Origin: Eledone cirrhosa
Taxonomy: Eukaryota
DNA: 64,000 nt
NCBI GenBank assembly: GCA_964016885.1
Contig: OZ024746.1
Location: 60,636,001-60,700,000 of the forward strand
Direction of reading: 5' to 3'
The stretch's first letter is position 1. Every line of letters starts with the position of its first letter. Shown here one piece after another: positions 48,100 to 60,531 of this stretch. Both the position numbers and the translations under genes were made by a program. The notes under the pieces are model-generated. The model had not been told where the DNA came from and ran no database searches. It saw only the letters and a list, made by a program, of their open reading frames with translations.

Positions 48100-48166
48100 C
48101 TGTTTCTTTGGCTAAATGATAAAATCGATCTTTACGGGCCTTTCCAACCTTCGCCTTTTTTCCCAT
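48100..48166 (-). CDS. FTSJ3: FTSJ3/Spb1 rRNA methyltransferase, coding exon 1 (start codon)
   Basis: Minus strand reads [25 protein letters not shown](G), the conserved Spb1/FTSJ3 N-terminus; donor G|GTGAG. Confidence 0.96.
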
Positions 48167-48744: not shown

Positions 48745-50450
48745 CTTCTTCTTCTTCTTCTTCTTCTTCTCCCACTTATTCCTGTGAGGGTTGTGAGAGC
48801 AGAGTCCTCAAACACTCCTTCCAGCGGGTCCTGTCAGAAGCAACAGTCTCCAACTGATCCTGCTGGATCCCATGCAGGACCAGCCAAGTTCATGGATGTT
48901 ATCCAACCCCATCTTGCTCAGAGTCTACCCATTGGTCTCCTACCATTTGTTTTTGCCCATAAAATCTGCCCAGTGATTTTTTTTACTGAGACATTCTAAC
49001 CACTTGCCCATAGTATCAGAGCTGTGATCTCTCAATTTGGAGAAGTAGCGGCTTACCTTGAGTGAGTCTCTGATCTTTGAGCTACATACTGTATCAAGTA
49101 ATGTTTCTCCAAAGAACCTTCGGAGGAACCCCATTTTGACTGCTTGTATCGCAATTGTATTTTTCCGGTCATTAGCGAAGATTCATGACCATAGGTAACG
49201 GTTGGCACAAATACTGAATTGAAGATAGCGAGTTTGGCTTTTACATCCCTCTGTACTTGGAACAATCTCTCTTGCCTCCTTTTTTGAAAATTTGGATTAT
49301 CACTCCCAATTGCCATGGTTTAGGTACCTTTCCAGAGAATACCTTCTCTATTTAAGGCTTTTAATATCTTGGGCTGGATTTCATCTTCCCCAGCAGCCTT
49401 GCCATATTTGAGCTCTTTTACTGCTCTTGTGACTTCAGCCTCTGAGAGATTAGTCACCGCTCCCAGAGCAGAGGCACTTTGTGTACATCAGAAGATGCTG
49501 TTGTGATCGGGTTTAGGAGATCAGCAAAGTAGTCACTCCACCTCATGATGATGCACCTCTCTGAAGAGAACCACAGACACATTCCTGATAACAGGTGTGG
49601 TGGAGGACTTCTTATTATGAAGCCAGTGGATGGTCTGCCAGAACACTTTATTTGCCGATCTGAAGTTGGATTCCAGCTTAACCACAAAGTCCTCTCATGT
49701 CTTAACTTTGGATGCCTTTATTGTCTCTGCTGCGATTCTTTCAGTCTGCTTGTACTGCAAGTGCAAGGAGGACTTATTTCCAGGCCAAGCTTTGTAGGCC
49801 TCATTCTTTGCTTGGATGGCATCTTTGATGTCTTGATTGAACTAAGAGGTTCTCCTGCCATACGGTGACTGACCAAACCTCTTTCACCCACAACATTTAA
49901 CAGCTGAAGCAGGAACTGCTGCACTGAACAATCTCAACTCTATCTCAACATCCTCAGTATTCTCAGGGAGTTCTCTGAATTTGGATGCTATAGTATCTGC
50001 ATACTTGGTCCTAACTTCCTTATACACCAATGCTTCCCACTTTATCCTGTAGGTTACCTTGGACTTGCCAGTTTTGTGAGCTTCTTTGGCTTTAGGTAGT
50101 TTCAAGTTGCAGATAATTAGATGGTGATCAGTTGACAGCTCAGCTCCTCTCTTAACATGAACATCCAGCACAGAATTGAAGAGATCAGAGACAATATCAA
50201 AATCAATTATTGACCTCTGTTCCTGATTCCCCTTATATCTTGTTTATTTATGGATGTCTCTATGCTGGAAGGTGTTTATAATAGAAAGTCCGTTACTTCC
50301 AATCACTAGTTTCCATGCCAGGTGGTCAGTGTCAACATGTGCATTGAAGTCTCCAAACAGGATATATGTCTCACTGTTATCTACATCTAACACTGCAGTG
50401 ACTTCGTCAAGGGAGGATCTGTATTCGGACTCTTTCTTTGGTGTATAAGG
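48745..50450 (-). mobile_element. RTE-clade (Expander/Rex3-like) LINE, internally deleted and degenerate
   Basis: GDFNAHV, SIIDF, DVHVKRGAELSTDHHLIICNL, KAAGEDEI, AKLAIFNSVFVPTVTYGHES, MGFLRR; (GAA)n tail at about 48736-48770. Confidence 0.88.
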
Positions 50451-50959
50451 TTAGTGTTGACAATTAATAACTAAACTCTAAGAATGCTACTCGTCGTAAC
50501 AATATCCGAATGTCTGAAACATACTTCTCAGTGAGATGAACAAATTCATGTCCAAAGACAGAACAACTCCACATCTCTGTCATGTTTTATCTGGAGATTA
50601 TGGGACAAAGTATTCCCCATCCAGTATAACCTGAAATATCCTTGACAGGGCTCTTCCTTATGTTTCTGGCTGGGCCAATAAAAGTCATTTTGCATTCTGC
50701 AAGAAGCTGCATATATTACAGCAGCCAGCTGTATCTTTTAATAACAGTTCTCAGCTGTCTTTCTGTTACTATAAGCGGAGGTCTTTACTTCAAACAATTA
50801 CCTGTTAATAATGTCTTCTATATCACACGTTTCCATTGTAATGAAATTTGGTATCCCACTAATGGTACTAATTGTAAGTCTTAAAATATAATACTACCCA
50901 ATAAACATTTACCTTTATTTTCATATAACACAGGGATTCCTAACTGGTATATTAGTTAA

Positions 50960-51400
50960 TTAGTTAAGTCCTCACATTCCATGTGGAACATTGGGTAGCA
51001 ACAAAAGATTCCCATCCTCTGCGGTCTTCTGCAAAAGATTTGGCATCCTCCCAGCTCAGCTCTTCCACATCTAGATCCTTCCTGACTGTCCTCTTTCATG
51101 TTGTTAATGGGCATCTACATTTCTTTTTTCCACCTTCTGGCTTCTAGCCAAGGGAGAGTCATATGTGTCTTGATGGCATTCTAAAGACATATCCAAGAAA
51201 TCTCAGATGACAATCTTTCACTGTGAAGCTTAGTGGTTTCTGGGTTTCTGCTTGGTTCTCCCATTAACTTCTTCATTGGTTATTTTGTCTTGCCAAGAGA
51301 TATTAAGAATTTTTCTGAGGCACTTCTGGTGGAATACATCTATCTTGTAGGCAACTCCAGCTGTCATCTTCCATGTTTCACTGGCATAGATGGCAACTGA
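50960..51400 (-). mobile_element. RTE-type LINE 3' fragment
   Basis: IYASETWKMT...IDVFHQKCLRKILNISWQDKITNEEV. Confidence 0.8.
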
Positions 51401-52448
51401 TATATGGGAGATTAATTTTACCCAATGCACTAGAGCTCCTACAAACCAATTTATCCAACAGCAGTCAGTAGTCGTTCTCCTAGCAGCTGTCATCATCCAT
51501 TGATCTTCACATTTACTACCTTTAGATGTTGCCATTCAAGAATTCTTTCTTTGTGTGTTTTCCTGACTGTCGTTGCCTTGCAACTCTTCAAAATGAATGC
51601 TAACTCCATGGATTTTACTGGTTTCACAGATCATGCAAAGGCTATAGGCAAGACCTTTCTTCCAGATCAAACCAATGACTCTCAATGCATCTGGCTAGTG
51701 GTAAGGGTGTTGGACTTATGATTGTAATGTCGTGGGTTCAATTCCTGGGCTGGGTTGCGTGTTATGTTCTTGAGCAAAATACTTCCTTTCATGTTGCGCC
51801 AGTATACTCAGCTGAAAATGAATACTAGCAATTGCTGGTTGGTTTAACCTTGTGATGGACTGGCGTCCTGCCCGGGGCAGTAGTCTTGTACTCTCAGTCG
51901 CTTCGTGCCATGAAACCTGGATAAGCACCAGCTCAACACACTGTTTGCAGCGCACGAGGGCAGGCATACATGTATGCAATGCAATTCTCTCTTTCTCAAT
52001 GTTCACCTTTGATTACAGTCTAAAAATCAATATGAAGAAATTTTTCACACTAATTTGTACAAAAATAAACAATCTAAAATAAATTGACAAATATTATATT
52101 TAAATTAGAAAGCTGTATAAGCAAGTTGTATTTTATGGTAACATTTTATTTTCATTTCTTATACAAATGTCGGGTTTGGGCCCAAAACTCTCATAGATTC
52201 TTGGCAATCGATATCGACCAATTTGGGGAGCCTTGCGTTAGACGTTTTTAACCAGCGAAAATTGAAAACAAAGTTGATCGATTAGGCTGCAATTGTCAAT
52301 AATTGCAATTTCAGCCAATGAAATGGTTCGGTTGTTCTGTATGAATTACACCGGATACAATCACTCCGCTTATAGTCACCATGTTTATAGTCACCATGTT
52401 TATAGTCACATACTTGGAGCGTTGAAGTTTTACACAGATTATTCACTG

Positions 52449-53984
52449 ATGGCAGAGAGTAAACAAAAACGAACCCAGCTATCAATGGGACATAAAATTG
52501 AAATTCTCGACTGTATAGAATCCGGGAAAAAACTAGCAGACATCGCAGCCCTATTTACATGTGACAGATCAACTATTTCTAAAATTAAGAAAAACGCCAA
52601 GAAGCTCCGGGCCGAAAATATCAACAACAGGAACTCAAAGAAGTTTCGAAATCGGAAAAGTAACTTTAATGACGTCGAGGAAGCTCTCCTTAAATGGTTT
52701 ACACAAATGCGATCGTTGAATGCTACGGTAAACGGCCCTTTAATGCTGGAAAAAGCAGCTCAGTTCGCGGCATCTCTGGGGATAGAAAACTTTTCTGCTT
52801 CCAGCGGCTGGTTGGTGCGTTTCAAAAAGCGACACAATATTAGATTTTCCAGATCTCAGAACGAACAGCCGGCAGTTGAGGAATTCGTGGAAGCAGTCAA
52901 GTGGTCTGTAGACGAACTCAGGGAAAAAATTAAAAGATATATGCCTAGAGATATTTTTACTGCTGACGAAACATGTCTACTATATAAAGTACTGCAACCG
53001 GGAATAATTACATTTCAAGGTGAAAAAACAGGTGTAAATAATGTATCGAAAGAACAAATTACCGTCGTAGTTTGTGTTAATTCGGATGGCTCAGATAAAG
53101 ATCTTCATATCATCGGAAAACACCCAAAACCTGCGTGTTTCGCTCGAGTGCACAACTTGCCCCTCTCCTATTATAGCAACCAGAAATCTTGGATGACGAA
53201 CGATATTTGGAAGACGATTTTGTGGAAAATGAACCGAAAGTTCCAGTCCCAGAACCGCAAGGTAATCTTGTTTGTTGACAGTGCTGCATCTCATCGGTAT
53301 GTTGACAACAATACCACACCCTTCATCAGAGTTATTTATCTACCAAACAATACACACTCCATCCAGCCATGTCGACAGGGAATTATCAAATCTCTAAAAA
53401 CACATTATCGACGCCAAATTAACAGAAAAATGCTAACTGCATTCGAGAACGGTGTAGCGACCCAGGAATTTACCAGGTCCATCTCCCTACTGGATGCTAT
53501 GTTTATGTTGAAACGGGCCATGTTTTTAGTAACACCTCGGACAATCCGAAACAGTTTTCTGATATCGGGATTTCCCTTGGAGGACACCGAAGCCACCTGC
53601 CCAGAGCAGGACGAGGGAGAAGATGAAGAAGACGGAGATAGCGAAACATTTAATAGGTATGTCACTATCGACGACGAATTACCGGCATGTGGTGAGCTGA
53701 CGGACGTGGATATCTGCCAACAAATAGCAGCTTCGTGTAGTAATCACAATGATGATTGTGATGTAGATAGCAAAGAGATGGTGGAGCAAGAGAGACAGTT
53801 GACCAGAGCAGAAGGTTTAGCGGCTATGTACACATTCAGGACTTATCTAGAACAGAGATTTCAAAATTTTGATGGTTTACCTTTTGTCAGATTAGAAGAA
53901 TTGGTTGAACGTGATGCTTCCAAAGCACGGAATCAAATTTTAATTAAAAACTCTTACAGAAAGGAACGACAAAATATATTTTAA
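52449..53984 (+). CDS. Tigger/pogo transposase-derived protein (TIGD4/TIGD6/CENP-B-like: CENP-B_N HTH, HTH_Tnp_Tc5, DDE_1), 511 aa
   Basis: Uninterrupted ORF from ATG 52449 (MAESKQKRTQLSMGHKIEIL); VEEALLKWF, FSASSGWLVRFKKRHNI, FTADET, FVDSA, IQPCRQGII; acidic linker; third catalytic D replaced by R. Confidence 0.9.
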   Translation: MAESKQKRTQLSMGHKIEILDCIESGKKLADIAALFTCDRSTISKIKKNAKKLRAENINNRNSKKFRNRKSNFNDVEEALLKWFTQMRSLNATVNGPLMLEKAAQFAASLGIENFSASSGWLVRFKKRHNIRFSRSQNEQPAVEEFVEAVKWSVDELREKIKRYMPRDIFTADETCLLYKVLQPGIITFQGEKTGVNNVSKEQITVVVCVNSDGSDKDLHIIGKHPKPACFARVHNLPLSYYSNQKSWMTNDIWKTILWKMNRKFQSQNRKVILFVDSAASHRYVDNNTTPFIRVIYLPNNTHSIQPCRQGIIKSLKTHYRRQINRKMLTAFENGVATQEFTRSISLLDAMFMLKRAMFLVTPRTIRNSFLISGFPLEDTEATCPEQDEGEDEEDGDSETFNRYVTIDDELPACGELTDVDICQQIAASCSNHNDDCDVDSKEMVEQERQLTRAEGLAAMYTFRTYLEQRFQNFDGLPFVRLEELVERDASKARNQILIKNSYRKERQNIF

Positions 53985-54715
53985 TAATGATTTTAACATT
54001 CTCTAAGTTTTGTTTACAAAACCTAAAATAAGACGAGGAAAAGAAAAATCCAACTGGGGAAAAATTTTAAATCAATATTTTTTGGTTTGAATTTAAAATC
54101 GGTAAGTTTATAGAAAAGCCCCCGTTGGGGGTTTGTTACCCCCCCCCCCCTTCTCCAGCGTTTTTTAAAACTAATCTGTCTTCCTATATGCTCGTTTGTT
54201 GTTTGTTTTTTGTTTTCGGAAAAAAGTCGATTGCAAGCATGTCAAAGGTTAGATGAGTTGAAAACACATGAACAAACCTAGGGAAAAAAATTTTCTTAGC
54301 GATGCCTAGCGGGTGCTTTTCTATAAATTTACCGATTTTAAATTCAAACTCCAAAATTGATTAAATTTTTTTCATCAGTTGGATTTTTATTTTTCTTGTT
54401 CTGTTTTAGGTTTTCGTAAAAAAGGAGCCGTTGGTGAGTGAGTCGGATGTCAGAGAGGTCGAAAACTCGAAAAAGCCTAAGAAAAATCTCCCACCGAAGA
54501 AATCTCTGAGGATGGGAAAAACTGAGGGTCCCTCATCTTCCCCATTCTGTTTCGGAAAAAAAGTCGATTGCGAGCACGTCAGAAGTCAAATTATTTGAAA
54601 ACACACGGAAAAAAAAACTAGAAAAAGAAAATGTCCTTAGCGAACCCCAGAGGGTGCTTTTTATAAATCTACCTTAAAATCTTATATAAGTTCAAATTTC
54701 AGCTTGCATAGCTCG

Positions 54716-54945
54716 AGAGGCTAGCAACGAAGTTCTTGTGATTGTTGGCAGCTCGCTTTACCGATGTATTAGGTGATGCTCCTGGTGAGGGTACTTAGTT
54801 ATTTCAGAGCCTTAGACTCGCTATCACTCGCGGCAATACTGCTAGTATATTGGCTTGTCTCAAAATTTATTAGAGGCCAACTCCAGCGTCACTTGGAGCG
54901 TGCAATTGAGTATGTGTCTTCTACTTGAAAAATAAATAAAAATAA
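54716..54945 (+). mobile_element. CRE-clade non-LTR retrotransposon extreme 3' end
   Basis: LFQSLRLAITRGNTASILA matches the CRE-type LxQRLSxAxQRGNAASIL motif; A-rich tail with AATAAA. Confidence 0.65.
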
Positions 54946-55829
54946 ATTGTGTTTATATAATGATTATAAATAATTCTTTCAATGGAATAAACTTTAAAGG
55001 TTTCATACACAAGTAATTATCGTCTGCTGAGACAAAGTAAATTTTTACAATTACACTCATCTCATGTTGGATGTATGAAATTTATGTTTTTTCTATTGTT
55101 TTTGGAGTGTTTTGAACAAATCTGACCTTCAAAACTATCGGAAATTATTCGTTTTTTTTTTTTTAGTTTCATCTGAAAACTAAAAAAACCTTAGAGTGTC
55201 ACTCCCCACTCCAGTTAACTAATGAATTCCGACGGTTTGGGAGATTAGATTTATTCAGAACACATAAAAAGCCATAGAAAAACAAATTTGGCCTCGAAAG
55301 TGAGACGGGTGTAATTGTAAAAAGAATACTAATGGTGTCCCATCCCCTCCTCCGTATTAACTGAAAAACTAATAATTTCCAACAGTTTTGAAGGTCAGAT
55401 TCCTTCAAGTTGAAGATTCCTTCATTAGTGAAGTAGTTGAGCAAACATCTAGAACAAATGGTGGTTTGCACTGAAAAGGGCCATTAGTGTAGAATCCATA
55501 GAATTTAACAAAAGATTACCAGTAGAAAAAATAGAGTAGAGTGAGAGATAGTCAGAAAGTTAGATATGGCATTTAGGAAAAGCATTGTGGCAGACATACT
55601 CATGATGAGATTGGTCTTTGACCAATTCTTTAATGTGAAACATGAAGGCTGCGTTGTCAGAGCTAGGGCATGTGTTCTAAGATATGAAGGGATATAAAAG
55701 CTGGTAAATGGGCCTGAGTAGCAAAGATTCAGCATGGAAACAATGTCGTGATTTAGACTGGCTGATCACAATGAATGCAGGCTACTCAGTTCCGAGTAGT
55801 GGCTCTTTGCTCAGCTGTTCAAGCTGAGC

Positions 55830-55940
55830 AGCGGGTGCCCCTTTCCTTTTACATCAACCAGAAATCTTGGATGATGAATGATATTTGGAAGATGATTTTG
55901 TGGAAAATGAAACAAAAGTTCCAGTCCCAGAACCACAAGG
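55830..55940 (+). pseudogene. Diverged fragment of the same pogo/TIGD DDE region
   Basis: PLSFYINQKSWMMNDIWKMILWKMKQKFQSQNHK versus PLSYYSNQKSWMTNDIWKTILWKMNRKFQSQNRK at about 53158-53262. Confidence 0.85.
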
Positions 55941-55944
55941 ATGG

Positions 55945-57093
55945 AGTTCAGTACTGACCTAGACAGTCTGCTGCAAGTTTCAGCGACAGAGATGCAGTAG
56001 TACAAATGGAAAAGATTTGGCATTGGGGTGTTATCAACTATCTGCAGAAAAAGTTTAGTCCCCAAGGACACTCATTTTAACATGGTTGCTACATTAGGGG
56101 ATGACACTCCAGACTTTCAGCAGTGCAAAAGTGGGCAGCTGAATTTAGGAAAAGTGAGAGAATTGAAGATGACCCAAGGTCCGGATGTCCTGCAACTGCC
56201 ACCACTGAGGAAAACATTGATCGTGTTCACCATATGGTGATAGATGATAAATGATTGACTATAAATCAAATAACCAATGCTATTAGCATATCCCGTTGGA
56301 GAGTTGAGCATATTTTGCACTATGAACTTGGCATGACAAAGGTTTTTGCTCAGTGGGTGCCACGTCTTCTAATACCTAATCAAAAGTGCACCTGCTGATC
56401 ACATCACAGGAAAATCTGACATTGAGGAAGATTCAGCTAGTTTCCTTGAACATTTCCTAACCCAGGATGAGTGTTGGGTTCATCAATTTGAGCCTGAGAC
56501 AAAAAGACAATCCATGCAGTAGAAAAACCCCTTCTCATCTGCTCCAAAGAAGGCCAAAGTCGTTTCATCTGCAGGAAGGTGATGGCCTCAGTTTTTTTTT
56601 TGGTGCAATAGGCATTATGTTTATTGACTATCTTCAAAAGGGCCACATCATCAAGGGAGAGTACTTTGTCAACTTGTTGAGGCAGTTATGAACACTCAGG
56701 AAAACTGACAAAAAGGGTCTTGTTTCATCAGGACAATGCTCCAGTACACAAGTCGTTGGTTTCAATGGCTGCTGTGCATGACTGTGGCTTTGAATTGCTT
56801 GATCACCCCCTTTATTCTCCTGATTTGGCTCCATCTGATTATTATTTGTTCCTCAACATGAAAAAAACACTTGGCTGGGAACCAGTATCACAGTAATGAT
56901 GACATCATATCTGCTGTTGACTTTTTTTAGCAACAGGATGAAAGCTTCTTCACCAATGGGCTCCAAGCACTGCAACACTGATGGAAGAAGTGTGTGGACC
57001 GGAAAGGGGACTATGTTGAAAAATAAACCTCATTTGGTTACATTCCATGAGAGTATCTTGGTCAGCCTTTGAACTTTTCATCTGATCCGCGTA
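55945..57093 (+). mobile_element. Decayed mariner element; transposase about 56006-57026 with frameshifts and stops; 3' TIR retained
   Basis: EDDPRSGCP, WVPRLL, TQDECWVH, HQDNAPVH, PYSPDLAPSDYYLF, WKKCVDRKGDYVEK*; ends gaacttttcatctgatccgcgTA. Confidence 0.92.
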
Positions 57094-57599
57094 ATTGTGT
57101 GTGTGTATTATAGGCTATGACCAACAAGATGAAAAATATGGTGTGTATGCATTATAGGCTATGGTTAACAAGGTTAAACATATAGTGTGTATTATAGAAT
57201 ATGGCTAACAAGATTAAAGATATGGTGTATATATGTGTATTAGAGTCTATGACTAACAAGGTTAAACACAAGGTGTGTATATGTGTGTATTATACTATAT
57301 GACTAACAAGGTTAAACATATGCATATCTGAATCAGTGGTCATCAGCTATTCTCAGCTATCACTGTAATACTGAATCAATGTTTTAATTTTCTACCTCAT
57401 ACTGTCTCTCTCTCTCTCTTTATCTCATACTATCAGCACTTCTCTACCTCCTACTGTCACTGTCTCTCTCTTTATCTCATAGTCTCAGCACTTCTCTACC
57501 CCCTACTGCCATTCTCTCTCTCTTTATCTAATACAATTAGCACTTCTTTACTTCATTCTCTCTCTCTACCTCATATTATTGGCATTTCTCTACCTTTTA

Positions 57600-58745
57600 T
57601 TGTCACTCACTCTCTCTATCACACTATTAGTACTTCTCAACCTCATACTGTCACTCTCTCTCTCTATCACATACTATTAGTACTTCTCAACCTCATACTG
57701 TCACTCTCTCTCTCTATCACATACTATTAGTACTTCTCAACCTCGTACTGTCACTCTCTCTCTCTCTCTATCACATACTATTAGTACTTCTCAACCTCAT
57801 AGTCTCTCTCTCTCTCTATCACACTATTAGTACTTCTCAACCTCATACTGTCACTCTCTCTCTCTCTCTCTATCACACTATTAGTACTTCTCAACCTCAT
57901 ACTGTCACTCCCTCTCTCTCTCTATCACATACTATTAGTACTTCTCAACCTCATACTGTCACTCTCTCTCTATCACATACTATTAGTACTTCTCAACCTC
58001 ATACTGTCACTCTCTCTCTCTCTCTCTCTATCACACTATTAGTACTTCTCAACCTCATACTGTCACTCCCTCTCTCTCTCTATCACATACTATTAGTACT
58101 TCTCAACCTCATACTGTCACTCTCTCTATCACACTATTAGTACTTCTCAACCTCATACTGTCACTCTCTCTCTCTCTATCACACTATTAGTACTTCTCAA
58201 CCTCATACTGTCACTCTCTCTCTCTCTATCACATACTATTAGTACTTCTCAACCTCATACTGTCACTCTCTCTCTCTCTCTCTCTATCACATGCTATTAG
58301 TACTTCTCAACCTCATACTGTCACTCTCTCTCTCTATTAGTACTTCTCAACCTCATACTGTCACTCTCTCTCTCTCTCTCTATCACATACTATTAGTACT
58401 TCTCAACCTCATACTGTCACTCTCTCTCTCTCTCTCTCTATCACATACTATTAGTACTTCTCAACCTCATACTGTCACTCTCTCTCTCTCTCTATCACAT
58501 ACTATTAGTACTTCTCAACCTCATACTGTCACTCTCTCTCTCTCTCTCTCTATTAGTACTTCTCAACCTCATACTGTCACTCTCTCTCTCTCTCTATTAG
58601 TACTTCTCAACCTCATACTGTCACTCTCTCTCTATTAGTACTTCTCAACCTCATACTGTCACTCTCTCTCTCTCTATCACATACTATTAGTACTTCTCAA
58701 CCTCATACTGTCACTCTCTCTCTCTCTCTCTCATACTATTAGCAC
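57600..58745. repeat. ~45-50-bp minisatellite with variable (CT)n
   Basis: Unit tattagtacttctcaacctcatactgtcac(tc)ntatcacatac. Confidence 0.95.
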
Positions 58746-59129
58746 TTCTTACTTCCACCCACTTGGCTTTTCTCTTTTCTTTCTTTTTAACTTAAAATTA
58801 TATTTTTATTATTTGTTACAGTAGAATAGCAGTGGATTGGCAGCAGAGCCATGAGAGCATTGGTAAAATGTTTATGAATATTTGTTCTCGTTCTTTACAT
58901 TCTGAGTTCAAATTCTACAAAGATAAACTTTGATTTTCATCCTTTTGAAGATGATAAAATAAAGTGCCAGTTTTTCTGAGTTTTTCCTATCCCAAAATTG
59001 TTGGGCTGTGCCTGAATTAGAAACCATTACATGTTACTGAACAAGTTTTGCTCTTTGTTTTCTAAGTTCAAATAACGCTAAGATCTACTTGGTTGGTAAA
59101 TTTAATATGTTAGCTGATTTAACACCATC

Positions 59130-60050
59130 ACTTTGGTAATGTTACCAATTATAGATCATGTCAACTATAGACACCACATCTAGTAATGTTACTAGATATA
59201 GACCACGTTGTCAACTATAGACACCACATCTGGTAATATTACCAGATATAGACCATGTTGTCAACTATAGACACCACAGCTGGTAATAATACTAGATATA
59301 GACCATGTCAACTATAGACACCACATCTGGTAATGTTACCAGATATAGACCATGTTGTCAACTATAGACACATCTGGTAATGTTACCTGATATAGACCAT
59401 GTCAACTATAGACACCACTACATCTAGTAATGTTACCAGATATAAACCATGTCAACTATAGACACCACCACATCTGGTAATGTTACCAGATATAGACCAT
59501 GTTGTCAACTATAGACACCACTACATCTAGTAATGTTACCAGATATAAACCATGTCAACTATAGACACCACATCTAGTAATGTTACTAGATATAGACCAT
59601 GTCAACTATAGACACCACATCTAGTAATGTTACTAGATATAGACCATGTCAACTATAGACACCACCACATCTGGTAATGTTACCAGATATAGACCATGTC
59701 AACTATAGACAATACTACATCTGGTAATGTTACCAGATATAGACCATGTCAACTATAGACACCACTACATCTGGTAATGTTACCAGATATAGACCATGTC
59801 AACTATAGACACCACATCTAGTAATGTTACTAGATATAGACCATGTTGTCAACTATAGACACCACTACATCTAGTAATGTTACCAGATATAAACCATGTC
59901 AACTATAGACACCACCACATCTGGTAATGTTACCAGATATAGACCATGTCAACTATAGACACCACTACATCTGGTAATGTTACCAGATATAGACCATGTC
60001 AACTATAGAACCACTACAGCTGGTAATGTTACCAGTTATGGACCATGTGT
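59130..60050. repeat. 39-45-bp minisatellite
   Basis: Unit tggtaatgttaccagatatagaccatgtcaactatagacaccacatc with 3-bp indel variants. Confidence 0.95.
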
Positions 60051-60489
60051 CTTATTCAAGGGAAATATCAATACCTTGAAACTGGAGTCAATAACTCAGT
60101 CACTCTTGACTTTGGCCAACTCAGGCACTCTTGGCCGTGGTCAATTCAGTCACTAATGGCTGTGGTCAACAGTCATTCTTGGTTGTAGGTCAGTGAGAAT
60201 GTGTATCTTTTACTCTCTCACTATGATGTGTATCTTTATCTCTCATTCTCTTTTTCATGCTTACATGGCTTCCAACACATGCCATCAGTTTAGTCTATTC
60301 AATATTTTATACTAGTTATCTACACACAAACCTCTTATTCATAATATCTGCTTTATTTAACTTATGATTAGTCTTTAGTTATTCTTATGCGATTTTCACA
60401 AAGAATACTCAAGAAATGAAATAAATTATAAAATATAGCATTTATTTAATATTTACAAAAGGGAAGCATGACAGCTTCCTAAATCATTG

Positions 60490-60531
60490 TCAGGATTCTG
60501 TGAATTGTTTCTCAAAGTCTGCTTCAGAAAT
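60490..60531 (-). CDS. DDX55: DDX55/Spb4 last coding exon
   Basis: ttttaacag|ISEADFEKQFTES*; continues the DDX55 KKGK-IxExxFEK motif; AATAAA on the minus strand at about 60441-60446. Confidence 0.82.
   Translation of the reverse strand: MSEADFEKQFTES

What the first reader, a model, noticed from the sequence alone, without database searches (positions are those of the whole stretch)
52356..53984. Intact but apparently catalytically dead pogo/Tigger ORF: candidate domesticated CENP-B/TIGD-like gene
Seen: every other transposon coding sequence in the window is fragmentary or broken, but this 511-aa ORF is intact with both HTH domains. Its triad reads FTADET / FVDSA / QPCRQG, so the third Asp (canonical QPxDQG, 31 residues after D2) is Arg (CGA at 53373-53375). 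A TIR-like end (TAcaatcactccgcttatagtcac, 52356-52379) plus two 15-bp catgtttatagtcac repeats lies only about 90 bp upstream. I saw no matching 3' TIR. A splice-acceptor-like ttgcaatttcag ends at about 52313. Known: pogo transposases were repeatedly domesticated (CENP-B, JRK, TIGD1-7, fission yeast Abp1/Cbh) as single-exon DNA-binding proteins that often lose the DDD triad. Inference: a lineage-specific domesticated DNA-binding factor that might bind its own upstream repeats or Tigger-type MITEs. Caveat: CGA differs from GAC by the shift of one C, so a consensus error must be excluded.
Basis: partly seen in the sequence, partly recalled or inferred. Interest (0 to 1): 0.72.

Follow-up and report, generated by a model that had tools for sequence, protein, structure and literature searches.

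The report
Octopus gene tamed from pogo transposon
A single-copy gene descended from a pogo jumping gene has lost a key cutting residue, has an intact counterpart with the same loss in another octopus species, and likely now works as a DNA-binding regulator, a new case of a well-known kind of taming.

Summary
The 511-aa ORF (52449-53984, +) has both HTH domains, a DDE_1 domain and a D173/D277/R309 triad. R309 is not an assembly error: short-read contigs match it, and Octopus sinensis XP_029637971.1 (78% identical) has the same R and has also lost D1.

The gene is single-copy by DNA search. A related multicopy pogo family in the same genome keeps DDD but is broken in 10 of 10 copies checked. 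The two octopod proteins differ at 113 of 503 sites with no stop or frameshift, far from neutral expectation (about 6 stops, about 19 frameshifts), and the changes avoid conserved sites. An apparently RNA-derived run covers most of the ORF and shows a spliced 3' UTR.

Best reading: a domesticated, non-cutting DNA-binding protein of the CENP-B/TIGD kind, recruited independently in octopods.

Against: that one RNA contig carries an extra A that would truncate the protein at 161 aa; a left TIR remains; synteny and DNA-level dN/dS could not be tested; no ortholog turned up in other Octopus species.

The MITE-binding and 5' splice-acceptor ideas found no support. Pogo domestication in Octopus is already reported in general; this gene was not found described.

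The parts
52449..53984 (+). Single-exon ORF, 511 aa, pogo-derived: CENP-B_N, HTH_Tnp_Tc5, dead DDE_1 domain, acidic linker, two C-terminal helices
52461..52850 (+). Bipartite HTH DNA-binding domain (aa 5-134); the 11-residue stretch CDRSTISKIKK (model helix 40-48) is identical in both octopod proteins and in the closest intact transposase P0201
53373..53375 (+). Third catalytic position, Arg instead of Asp (R309); shared with O. sinensis XP_029637971.1
52356..52379 (+). Remnant left TIR, starting with TA, 93 bp upstream of the ATG; no right partner found
52380..52409 (+). Two 15-bp tandem repeats ending in the TIR core, like the subterminal repeats of the resident pogo family
52200..52325 (+). 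Candidate promoter (inferred): CCAAT-box match at 52313, second CCAAT at 52218, DRE-like match at about 52206, inside a CpG-rich stretch
   Evidence: motif definitions recalled
52924..52929 (+). Run of six A; the X4 contig has seven, which would end the frame after 161 aa and leave only the two HTH domains
54102..54409 (+). GT..AG intron in the 3' UTR, 117 nt after the stop codon, lying in a region with inverted repeats
54410..54950 (+). Last 3' UTR exon, made from an old dispersed repeat (other copies 65-84% alike); AATAAA at 54931 and 54941; the X4 contig ends at 54877
55836..55940 (+). 105-bp local copy of ORF codons 237-271, 90% identical, decayed

Best explanation
This is a single-copy gene derived from a pogo-superfamily transposase that has lost its third catalytic aspartate, is intact in a second octopus species, and likely serves the host as a non-cutting, sequence-specific DNA-binding regulator. 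Shown: single copy, intact in two octopods, shared loss of active-site residues, protein-level purifying selection, and coverage by spliced contigs. Inferred history: a pogo element landed 4.3 kb from the start of an FtsJ-family (FTSJ3-like) gene, lost its right end, gained a 3' UTR intron and poly(A) signals from another old repeat, and lost cutting before the two species split. Inferred mechanism: the two HTH domains still read a TIR-like sequence, since the first recognition helix is unchanged from the nearest intact transposase. The dead DDE domain, as conserved as the HTH region, likely acts as a fold for pairing or for recruiting chromatin factors, as in CENP-B, JRK/TIGD and fission yeast Abp1. 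The retained TIR and its two repeats just upstream of the ATG are the most obvious binding site, so the protein may damp its own expression (untested, about 0.3).
For: Copy number: DNA search of the 3.0-Gb genome gives the locus and one 105-bp piece beside it (2 of 2 candidates scored); of 73 protein matches (84 of 515 candidates scored) the next best is 38% identical. Counterpart: O. sinensis XP_029637971.1, 77-78%, full length, sister with support 100; stem branch 0.46 against tips 0.14 and 0.13 (quick tree). Catalytic loss: 135 of 153 homologs keep full DDD; of 62 positions at least 85% conserved, 12 are changed in both octopod proteins, 8 of them where P0201 keeps the family residue, including R203, R229, N278, D309; O. 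sinensis also has D173A. A C-terminal QxxI/L/M/VxxFF-type motif (PCNA-box pattern recalled) is in 65 of 100 homologs and in neither octopod protein. Selection: 113 differences in 503 aligned sites; neutral simulation gives about 6 stops (no stop in 0.1-0.15% of 2000 runs per setting), milder changes than neutral (1 of 2000 runs), 15 hits at 138 conserved sites against 30 expected (0 of 2000); about 19 frameshifts expected from the indel rate of the resident family, 0 seen; folded parts 81% identical against 62% in low-confidence parts (p 1.3e-4); HTH 84%, DDE 83%. Control: the resident family keeps DDD in most copies but 10 of 10 copies examined carry stops. Transcription: X4 contigs splice the FtsJ gene, cover 52434-53636 and 53756-54877, and skip a GT..AG intron. 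Fold: Mos1, CENP-B and SETMAR are the top matches.
Against: The only apparent RNA contig over the middle of the ORF has an extra A after 52923 (depth 6, one contig), which would truncate the protein at 161 aa; allele, slippage and error cannot be told apart here. X4 is not on record as RNA; that is inferred from its spliced contigs. A left TIR remains, and PMC7386202 counts a sequence with even one TIR and TSD as a transposon. Only one other species was found: the O. sinensis cluster has 1 member, no other Octopus protein is among 35 hits, the shorter and longer searches gave none, and it is not among the O. bimaculoides CENPB rows seen in PMC10027918. Synteny and DNA-level dN/dS were not testable. 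An intron 117 nt after the stop could mark the mRNA for decay (recalled rule, from mammals). The exact TIR core is rare in the genome, so targets are not evident. No binding was measured.
Confidence: 0.8

Rival explanations
1. A once-domesticated gene that is now decaying or dispensable in this species, or in which only the HTH half matters. It would be functional in the octopod ancestor, with null or HTH-only alleles now segregating.
For: Extra A in the X4 contig gives an HTH-only product; no counterpart found in other Octopus protein sets; 3' UTR intron 117 nt after the stop.
Against: The DDE domain is as conserved as the HTH region (83% against 84%); both terminal branches are about equal (0.14, 0.13); DNA contigs of sample S1 have the intact frame.
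Confidence: 0.12
2. A neutral transposon fossil that stayed open by chance and is transcribed passively from a CpG-rich promoter-like stretch.
For: A left TIR and TA remain; low depth in the one apparent RNA run; sits among old repeats.
Against: Neutral survival of the frame is about 1e-3 for stops and about 5e-9 for indels; changes avoid conserved and folded positions; the neighbouring 105-bp copy and 10 of 10 family copies have decayed.
Confidence: 0.03
3. A still-active transposase or nuclease with an unusual DD31R site, whose two octopod copies are separate insertions kept in shape by transposition or horizontal transfer.
For: D173 and D277 are kept in this species; the DDE fold is kept; synteny is untested.
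Against: Single copy, no right TIR, D1 also lost in O. sinensis, and further invariant residues lost in both. A positively charged Arg cannot bind the metal ion (established DDE chemistry, recalled).
Confidence: 0.03
4. An old ortholog of vertebrate TIGD4, as the RefSeq label 'TIGD4-like' might suggest.
For: Database name of P0002; the Atlas's first cluster is named TIGD4.
Against: Its sister is an intact DDD transposase at about 51% (support 99), nested among intact transposases and the resident mobile family; PMC7386202 places TIGD4's origin in lobe-finned fish and tetrapods; the TIR remnant shows an insertion in place.
Confidence: 0.02

Closest known systems
Vertebrate pogoR-derived genes TIGD3, TIGD4, TIGD6 and Tigger-derived JRK/JRKL/TIGD2/TIGD7 (PMC7386202; passages and section 9 with Table 1 read)
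   Same: About 510 aa, whole transposase kept, CENP-B_N + HTH_Tnp_Tc5 + DDE_1, triad damaged at the third position (DD30N, DD34S, DD32G there; DD31R here), 74-93% identity among orthologs there and 78% here.
   Different: Independent recruitment in octopods; a left TIR and its repeats are still in place; known from two species only; no Ka/Ks from DNA.
Mammalian CENP-B (PDB 1HLV; PMC4231638, passages read)
   Same: HTH region aligns at E 3.1e-15; dead DDE domain; acidic stretch before C-terminal helices.
   Different: No CENP-B dimerisation Pfam match in the C-terminus; no centromere or CENP-B box evidence was tested or seen.
Octopus bimaculoides 'CENPB' transcription factors (PMC10027918; abstract, passages, supplement searches and part 9 of 71 of Table1.XLSX read)
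   Same: Same kind of event, pogo domestication in the Octopus lineage.
   Different: This gene's motifs were not found in that table (0 hits for 5 motifs, 0 for DRSTI; long cells are cut at 400 characters); 10 O. bimaculoides rows were seen and none is this gene.
Unnamed intact pogo transposase P0201 (cluster of 5 from JGI, Logan and ENA contigs)
   Same: 50-52% identical over the full length; same first recognition helix; sister in the tree.
   Different: Keeps DDD and the other catalytic-motif residues; host unknown; no closer copy of it was found in this genome (86 of 977 candidates scored).

Membership tests
pogo superfamily transposase descent | CENP-B_N + HTH_Tnp_Tc5 + DDE_1 architecture | tested here: met
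   fold matches
Active autonomous pogo transposon | Intact DDD triad | tested here: not met
   R309; confirmed by contigs and by the O. sinensis protein
Active autonomous pogo transposon | Paired TIRs with TA duplication | tested here: not met
   left end only; best right-end score 18 of 48 in 53984-60500
Active autonomous pogo transposon | Several near-identical dispersed copies | tested here: not met
   (counts are lower bounds)
Domesticated pogo gene (CENP-B/TIGD kind) | Single copy with an intact ORF | tested here: met
   one apparent RNA contig shows a frameshift
Domesticated pogo gene (CENP-B/TIGD kind) | Intact counterpart in another species | tested here: met
   O. sinensis XP_029637971.1, 78%; one species only
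Domesticated pogo gene (CENP-B/TIGD kind) | Same flanking genes in the other species | not testable with these tools
   no O. sinensis DNA was available
Domesticated pogo gene (CENP-B/TIGD kind) | Purifying selection | tested here: met
   protein-level tests only; Ka/Ks needs the second coding sequence
Domesticated pogo gene (CENP-B/TIGD kind) | Expressed as mRNA | tested here: inconclusive
   spliced contigs of X4 cover most of it, but the run is not on record as RNA, depth is about 6 and the contig has a frameshift
Domesticated pogo gene (CENP-B/TIGD kind) | No TIR or TSD on either side (screening rule of PMC7386202 and PMC13548663) | tested here: not met
   a left TIR remnant is present; the rule is; mobility is nonetheless lost
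TIGD4 / TIGD6 / CENP-B orthology | Groups with the vertebrate genes rather than with mobile transposases | tested here: inconclusive
   nested among intact transposases, which argues against it, but true TIGD4, TIGD6 and CENP-B were not in the tree
CENP-B (centromere protein) | C-terminal CENP-B dimerisation domain | tested here: not met
   no PF09026 match at E up to 5
CENP-B (centromere protein) | Binds centromeric repeats and localises to centromeres | not testable with these tools
   needs ChIP or imaging

The most novel reading that the evidence does not exclude
An octopod-specific transposon-control gene built entirely from transposon parts: a dead pogo transposase that keeps its ancestral DNA-reading helix, represses itself through its own retained TIR, and jams the related pogo family in this genome whose TIR shares the CCGCTTA core, with slippage at an A-run and a decay-prone 3' UTR intron tuning a short HTH-only form against the full-length one.
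Probability: 0.1. Interest if true: 0.72.

Novelty: new member of a known kind. Interest (0 to 1): 0.42.

Why it matters
It adds a well-supported, independent case of pogo taming in octopods, where earlier work listed candidates mainly by domain content. The case is unusually easy to read: the left transposon end is still in place, a close intact transposase exists for comparison, and a decayed sister family in the same genome serves as a neutral control. The dead catalytic domain is conserved as strongly as the DNA-binding part, which bears on the open question of what such domains do in TIGD-type proteins. The kind of event is well known, and unchecked notes from this scan point to several other tamed transposases in the same genome, so a specialist would find it useful rather than surprising.

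Tried and rejected
Assembly error at R309: rejected.

Young multicopy transposon: rejected.

MITE family carrying this TIR core: the 16-mer occurs once (control 0); the 15-letter pattern with one N occurs 5 times (control 2); the three hits outside the window show no pogo coding or DNA likeness. Degenerate sites were not searched.

Spliced 5' UTR or fusion into 52314: no joint seen; the X4 contig begins at 52434. Lack of cover is no proof of absence.

Shared promoter with the FtsJ gene: no + strand contig seen between 48219 and 52434 apart from repeats; not evidence either way.

Run search: no RNA holder listed on record.

Homodimer of residues 448-511: no answer (score 0.02, mark 0.32); neither for nor against.

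CpG richness as a sign of function: ORF o/e 1.0 against 0.05-0.35 in 49000-51500, but the transposon copies elsewhere are also 0.67-1.19, so it does not discriminate.

Local 105-bp copy as a selection test: 6 of 7 amino-acid differences fall on the copy when O. sinensis is the outgroup; too few, and confounded by CpG decay.

Shorter and longer protein searches found no other octopus counterpart; P0046 and P0047 are N-terminal fragments, 56-66% alike, from unnamed records.

The careful tree did not finish; the quick tree of 40 rows was used (36 stored proteins chosen from the top hits and 4 own-genome rows).

Literature searches found no paper on this gene; subscription journals are not covered, and bioRxiv supplements were not seen. 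PMC7325037, PMC8101967, PMC5371812 and the S. osmophilus preprint were seen as search listings only. Earlier-finding look-ups by place and by sequence were empty.

Full report
Observation. The ORF at 52449-53984 (+) encodes 511 aa without a stop. Pfam finds CENP-B_N, HTH_Tnp_Tc5 and DDE_1. The triad is D173, D277 and R309, 31 residues after D2, with CGA at 53373-53375. Short-read contigs from runs X1 and X2 (one sample, perhaps the source of the assembly) span 52101-54448 without a difference, and an X4 contig from a second sample has no substitution over 52563-53636. The upstream TA-started end and two 15-bp repeats are present. The end matches 15 of 18 letters of the TIR of a multicopy pogo family in this genome, whose ends also carry subterminal repeats of the TIR core. 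The likeness is modest by score (22 against 20 for the next places in the window), so position and layout carry the claim. No right TIR was found.

Setting. The genome is 3.0 Gb and, by the protein match below, an octopod's (inferred). The ORF lies head to head with an FtsJ-family gene whose ATG is at 48166 on the minus strand (the name FTSJ3 is recalled), and tail to tail with a gene ending near 60480 whose last exons resemble DDX55 (recalled likeness, not tested).

Copy number. A DNA search gives the locus and one 105-bp, 90% copy 2.7 kb downstream (2 of 2 candidates scored). A protein search gives 73 matches (84 of 515 candidates scored); the next best is 38% identical. Many of the closest belong to one dispersed family whose longer pairwise matches are mostly 85-97% alike, keep DDD where covered and carry stops in 10 of 10 copies examined. 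This family is the internal picture of an ordinary transposon left to decay.

Counterpart. The best hit among 5.8 billion proteins is O. sinensis XP_029637971.1, 508 aa, 77-78% identical; the search of 1.84 billion representatives agrees. It has the same QPCRQG and has also lost D1. The next relative is P0201, an intact DDD transposase from unnamed contigs at 50-52%. In a quick ML tree of 40 rows the two octopod proteins are sisters (100), P0201 is their sister (99), and the group sits among intact transposases with the resident family (99); the stem is 0.46 and the tips 0.14 and 0.13. So the gene arose from a mobile element and changed most before the two species split. The 'TIGD4-like' label reflects likeness, not shown orthology.

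Loss of catalysis. Of 153 homologs, 135 keep full DDD. Of 62 positions at least 85% conserved, 12 are changed in both octopod proteins; at 8 of these P0201 keeps the family residue (G138, N171, G196, R203, R229, N278, D309, C369). A C-terminal motif of the PCNA-box type (pattern recalled; pogo's PCNA-binding end is described in PMC4231638) is in 65 of 100 homologs and in neither octopod protein. The AlphaFold model (mean pLDDT 71.5, pTM 0.56) keeps both HTH units and the DDE core; top fold matches are Mos1, CENP-B and SETMAR.

Selection. Without the O. sinensis DNA I tested at protein level. The two differ at 113 of 503 aligned sites. Neutral evolution of the window's coding sequence to that distance gives about 6 stops (none in 0.1-0.15% of 2000 runs per setting), harsher changes than observed (1 of 2000 runs as mild), and about 30 hits at 138 conserved sites against 15 observed (0 of 2000). 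The indel rate between 9 resident copies (149 frameshifting indels per 1349 substitutions over all pairs; not independent events) predicts about 19 frameshifts; none is seen. Folded regions are 81% identical, low-confidence regions 62% (p 1.3e-4); the HTH region (84%) and the dead DDE domain (83%) are equally kept. Because both proteins share the catalytic loss, selection for transposition cannot explain this (inference).

Transcript. No run is on record as RNA, but X4 contigs join exons of the FtsJ gene, cover 52434-53636 and 53756-54877, and skip 54102-54409, GT..AG on the + strand. Poly(A) signals follow at 54931 and 54941. The 3' UTR comes from an old dispersed repeat. No splice was seen at 52314; that spot matches a CCAAT box (8 such matches in the window), so a promoter just upstream of the TIR is the simpler guess.

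Results against. The X4 contig has seven A where the genome has six (after 52923; depth 6, one contig), which would end the protein at 161 aa with only the HTH domains. Contigs drop rare variants, so a heterozygous null, an individual's allele and slippage cannot be separated. The intron lies 117 nt after the stop, a decay signal in mammals (recalled). The left TIR fails the no-TIR screen of PMC7386202 and PMC13548663. No counterpart was found in other Octopus protein sets or in the CENPB table of PMC10027918; transposon-like genes are often left unannotated, but loss is possible. Synteny was not testable.

Mechanism. The first recognition helix region is identical in P0001, P0002 and P0201 over 11 residues, so the protein likely still reads a TIR-like site; pogo transposase recognises a 12-bp TIR sequence (title seen in the reference list of PMC4231638). 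It likely cannot cut. The conserved dead DDE domain likely serves as a scaffold, as proposed for CENP-B-related proteins. The retained TIR and repeats upstream of the ATG are candidate self-binding sites, and a second TIR-like end lies at 50765-50793. The exact core is rare genome-wide (5 against 2 control), so there is no sign of a large MITE target family. All binding steps are inferred.

Known and new. Pogo transposases were tamed at least 12 times in vertebrates (PMC7386202), and pogo domestication in the Octopus lineage is reported in PMC10027918. This gene was not found described in seven searches, though RefSeq annotates its counterpart. It works like a TIGD/CENP-B-type protein and is an independent member of that kind, not CENP-B itself. 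Unchecked notes from this scan describe other tamed transposases in the same genome, which lowers the surprise.

Verdict. Real, very likely domesticated (0.8), new member of a known kind, interest 0.42.

Noticed in passing
L007 1414-2937 (-), G000:C3:70738361-70739791 match: A second intact pogo-type ORF (507 aa) with full DDD; by eye the ortholog of O. bimaculoides LOC106881326 listed in PMC10027918 Table1. Likely another domesticated gene, one that keeps the triad.
   Followed up: partly
window 50765-50793 (-): A second TIR-like end with 15 of 16 letters of the same core, back to back with the 52356 end and 1.6 kb away; no partner found. Possibly a relic of a local hop.
   Followed up: partly
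window 55836-55940: 105-bp copy of the ORF's middle, with 10 differences of which 4 are CpG-type, just upstream of a broken mariner.
   Followed up: yes
window 56000-57090 (+): Broken mariner transposase with stops and frameshifts (family recognised from recalled motifs).
   Followed up: partly
L004, L005, L006, L008-L014, L016, L018: Dispersed pogo family of about 2.6 kb with paired 24-bp TIRs, TA ends and subterminal repeats; all copies examined are broken.
   Followed up: partly
window 54010-54423 and 55042-55408: Old repeats with long inverted arms; the first holds the 3' UTR intron, so both splice sites lie in or beside the arms.
   Followed up: partly
L037 (G000:C13:17600218-17600309): The TIR core occurs twice, 77 bp apart, in a short tandem duplication without pogo coding likeness.
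   Followed up: partly
window 57400-58740 and 59150-60050: Two minisatellite arrays between the ORF and the DDX55-like gene end.
   Followed up: no
L021 and other matches: Several more distant pogo-like frames of 400-600 aa without stops in the matched part (for example C4:34926046, C3:41986980, C12:44607913); some may be further tamed genes.
   Followed up: no
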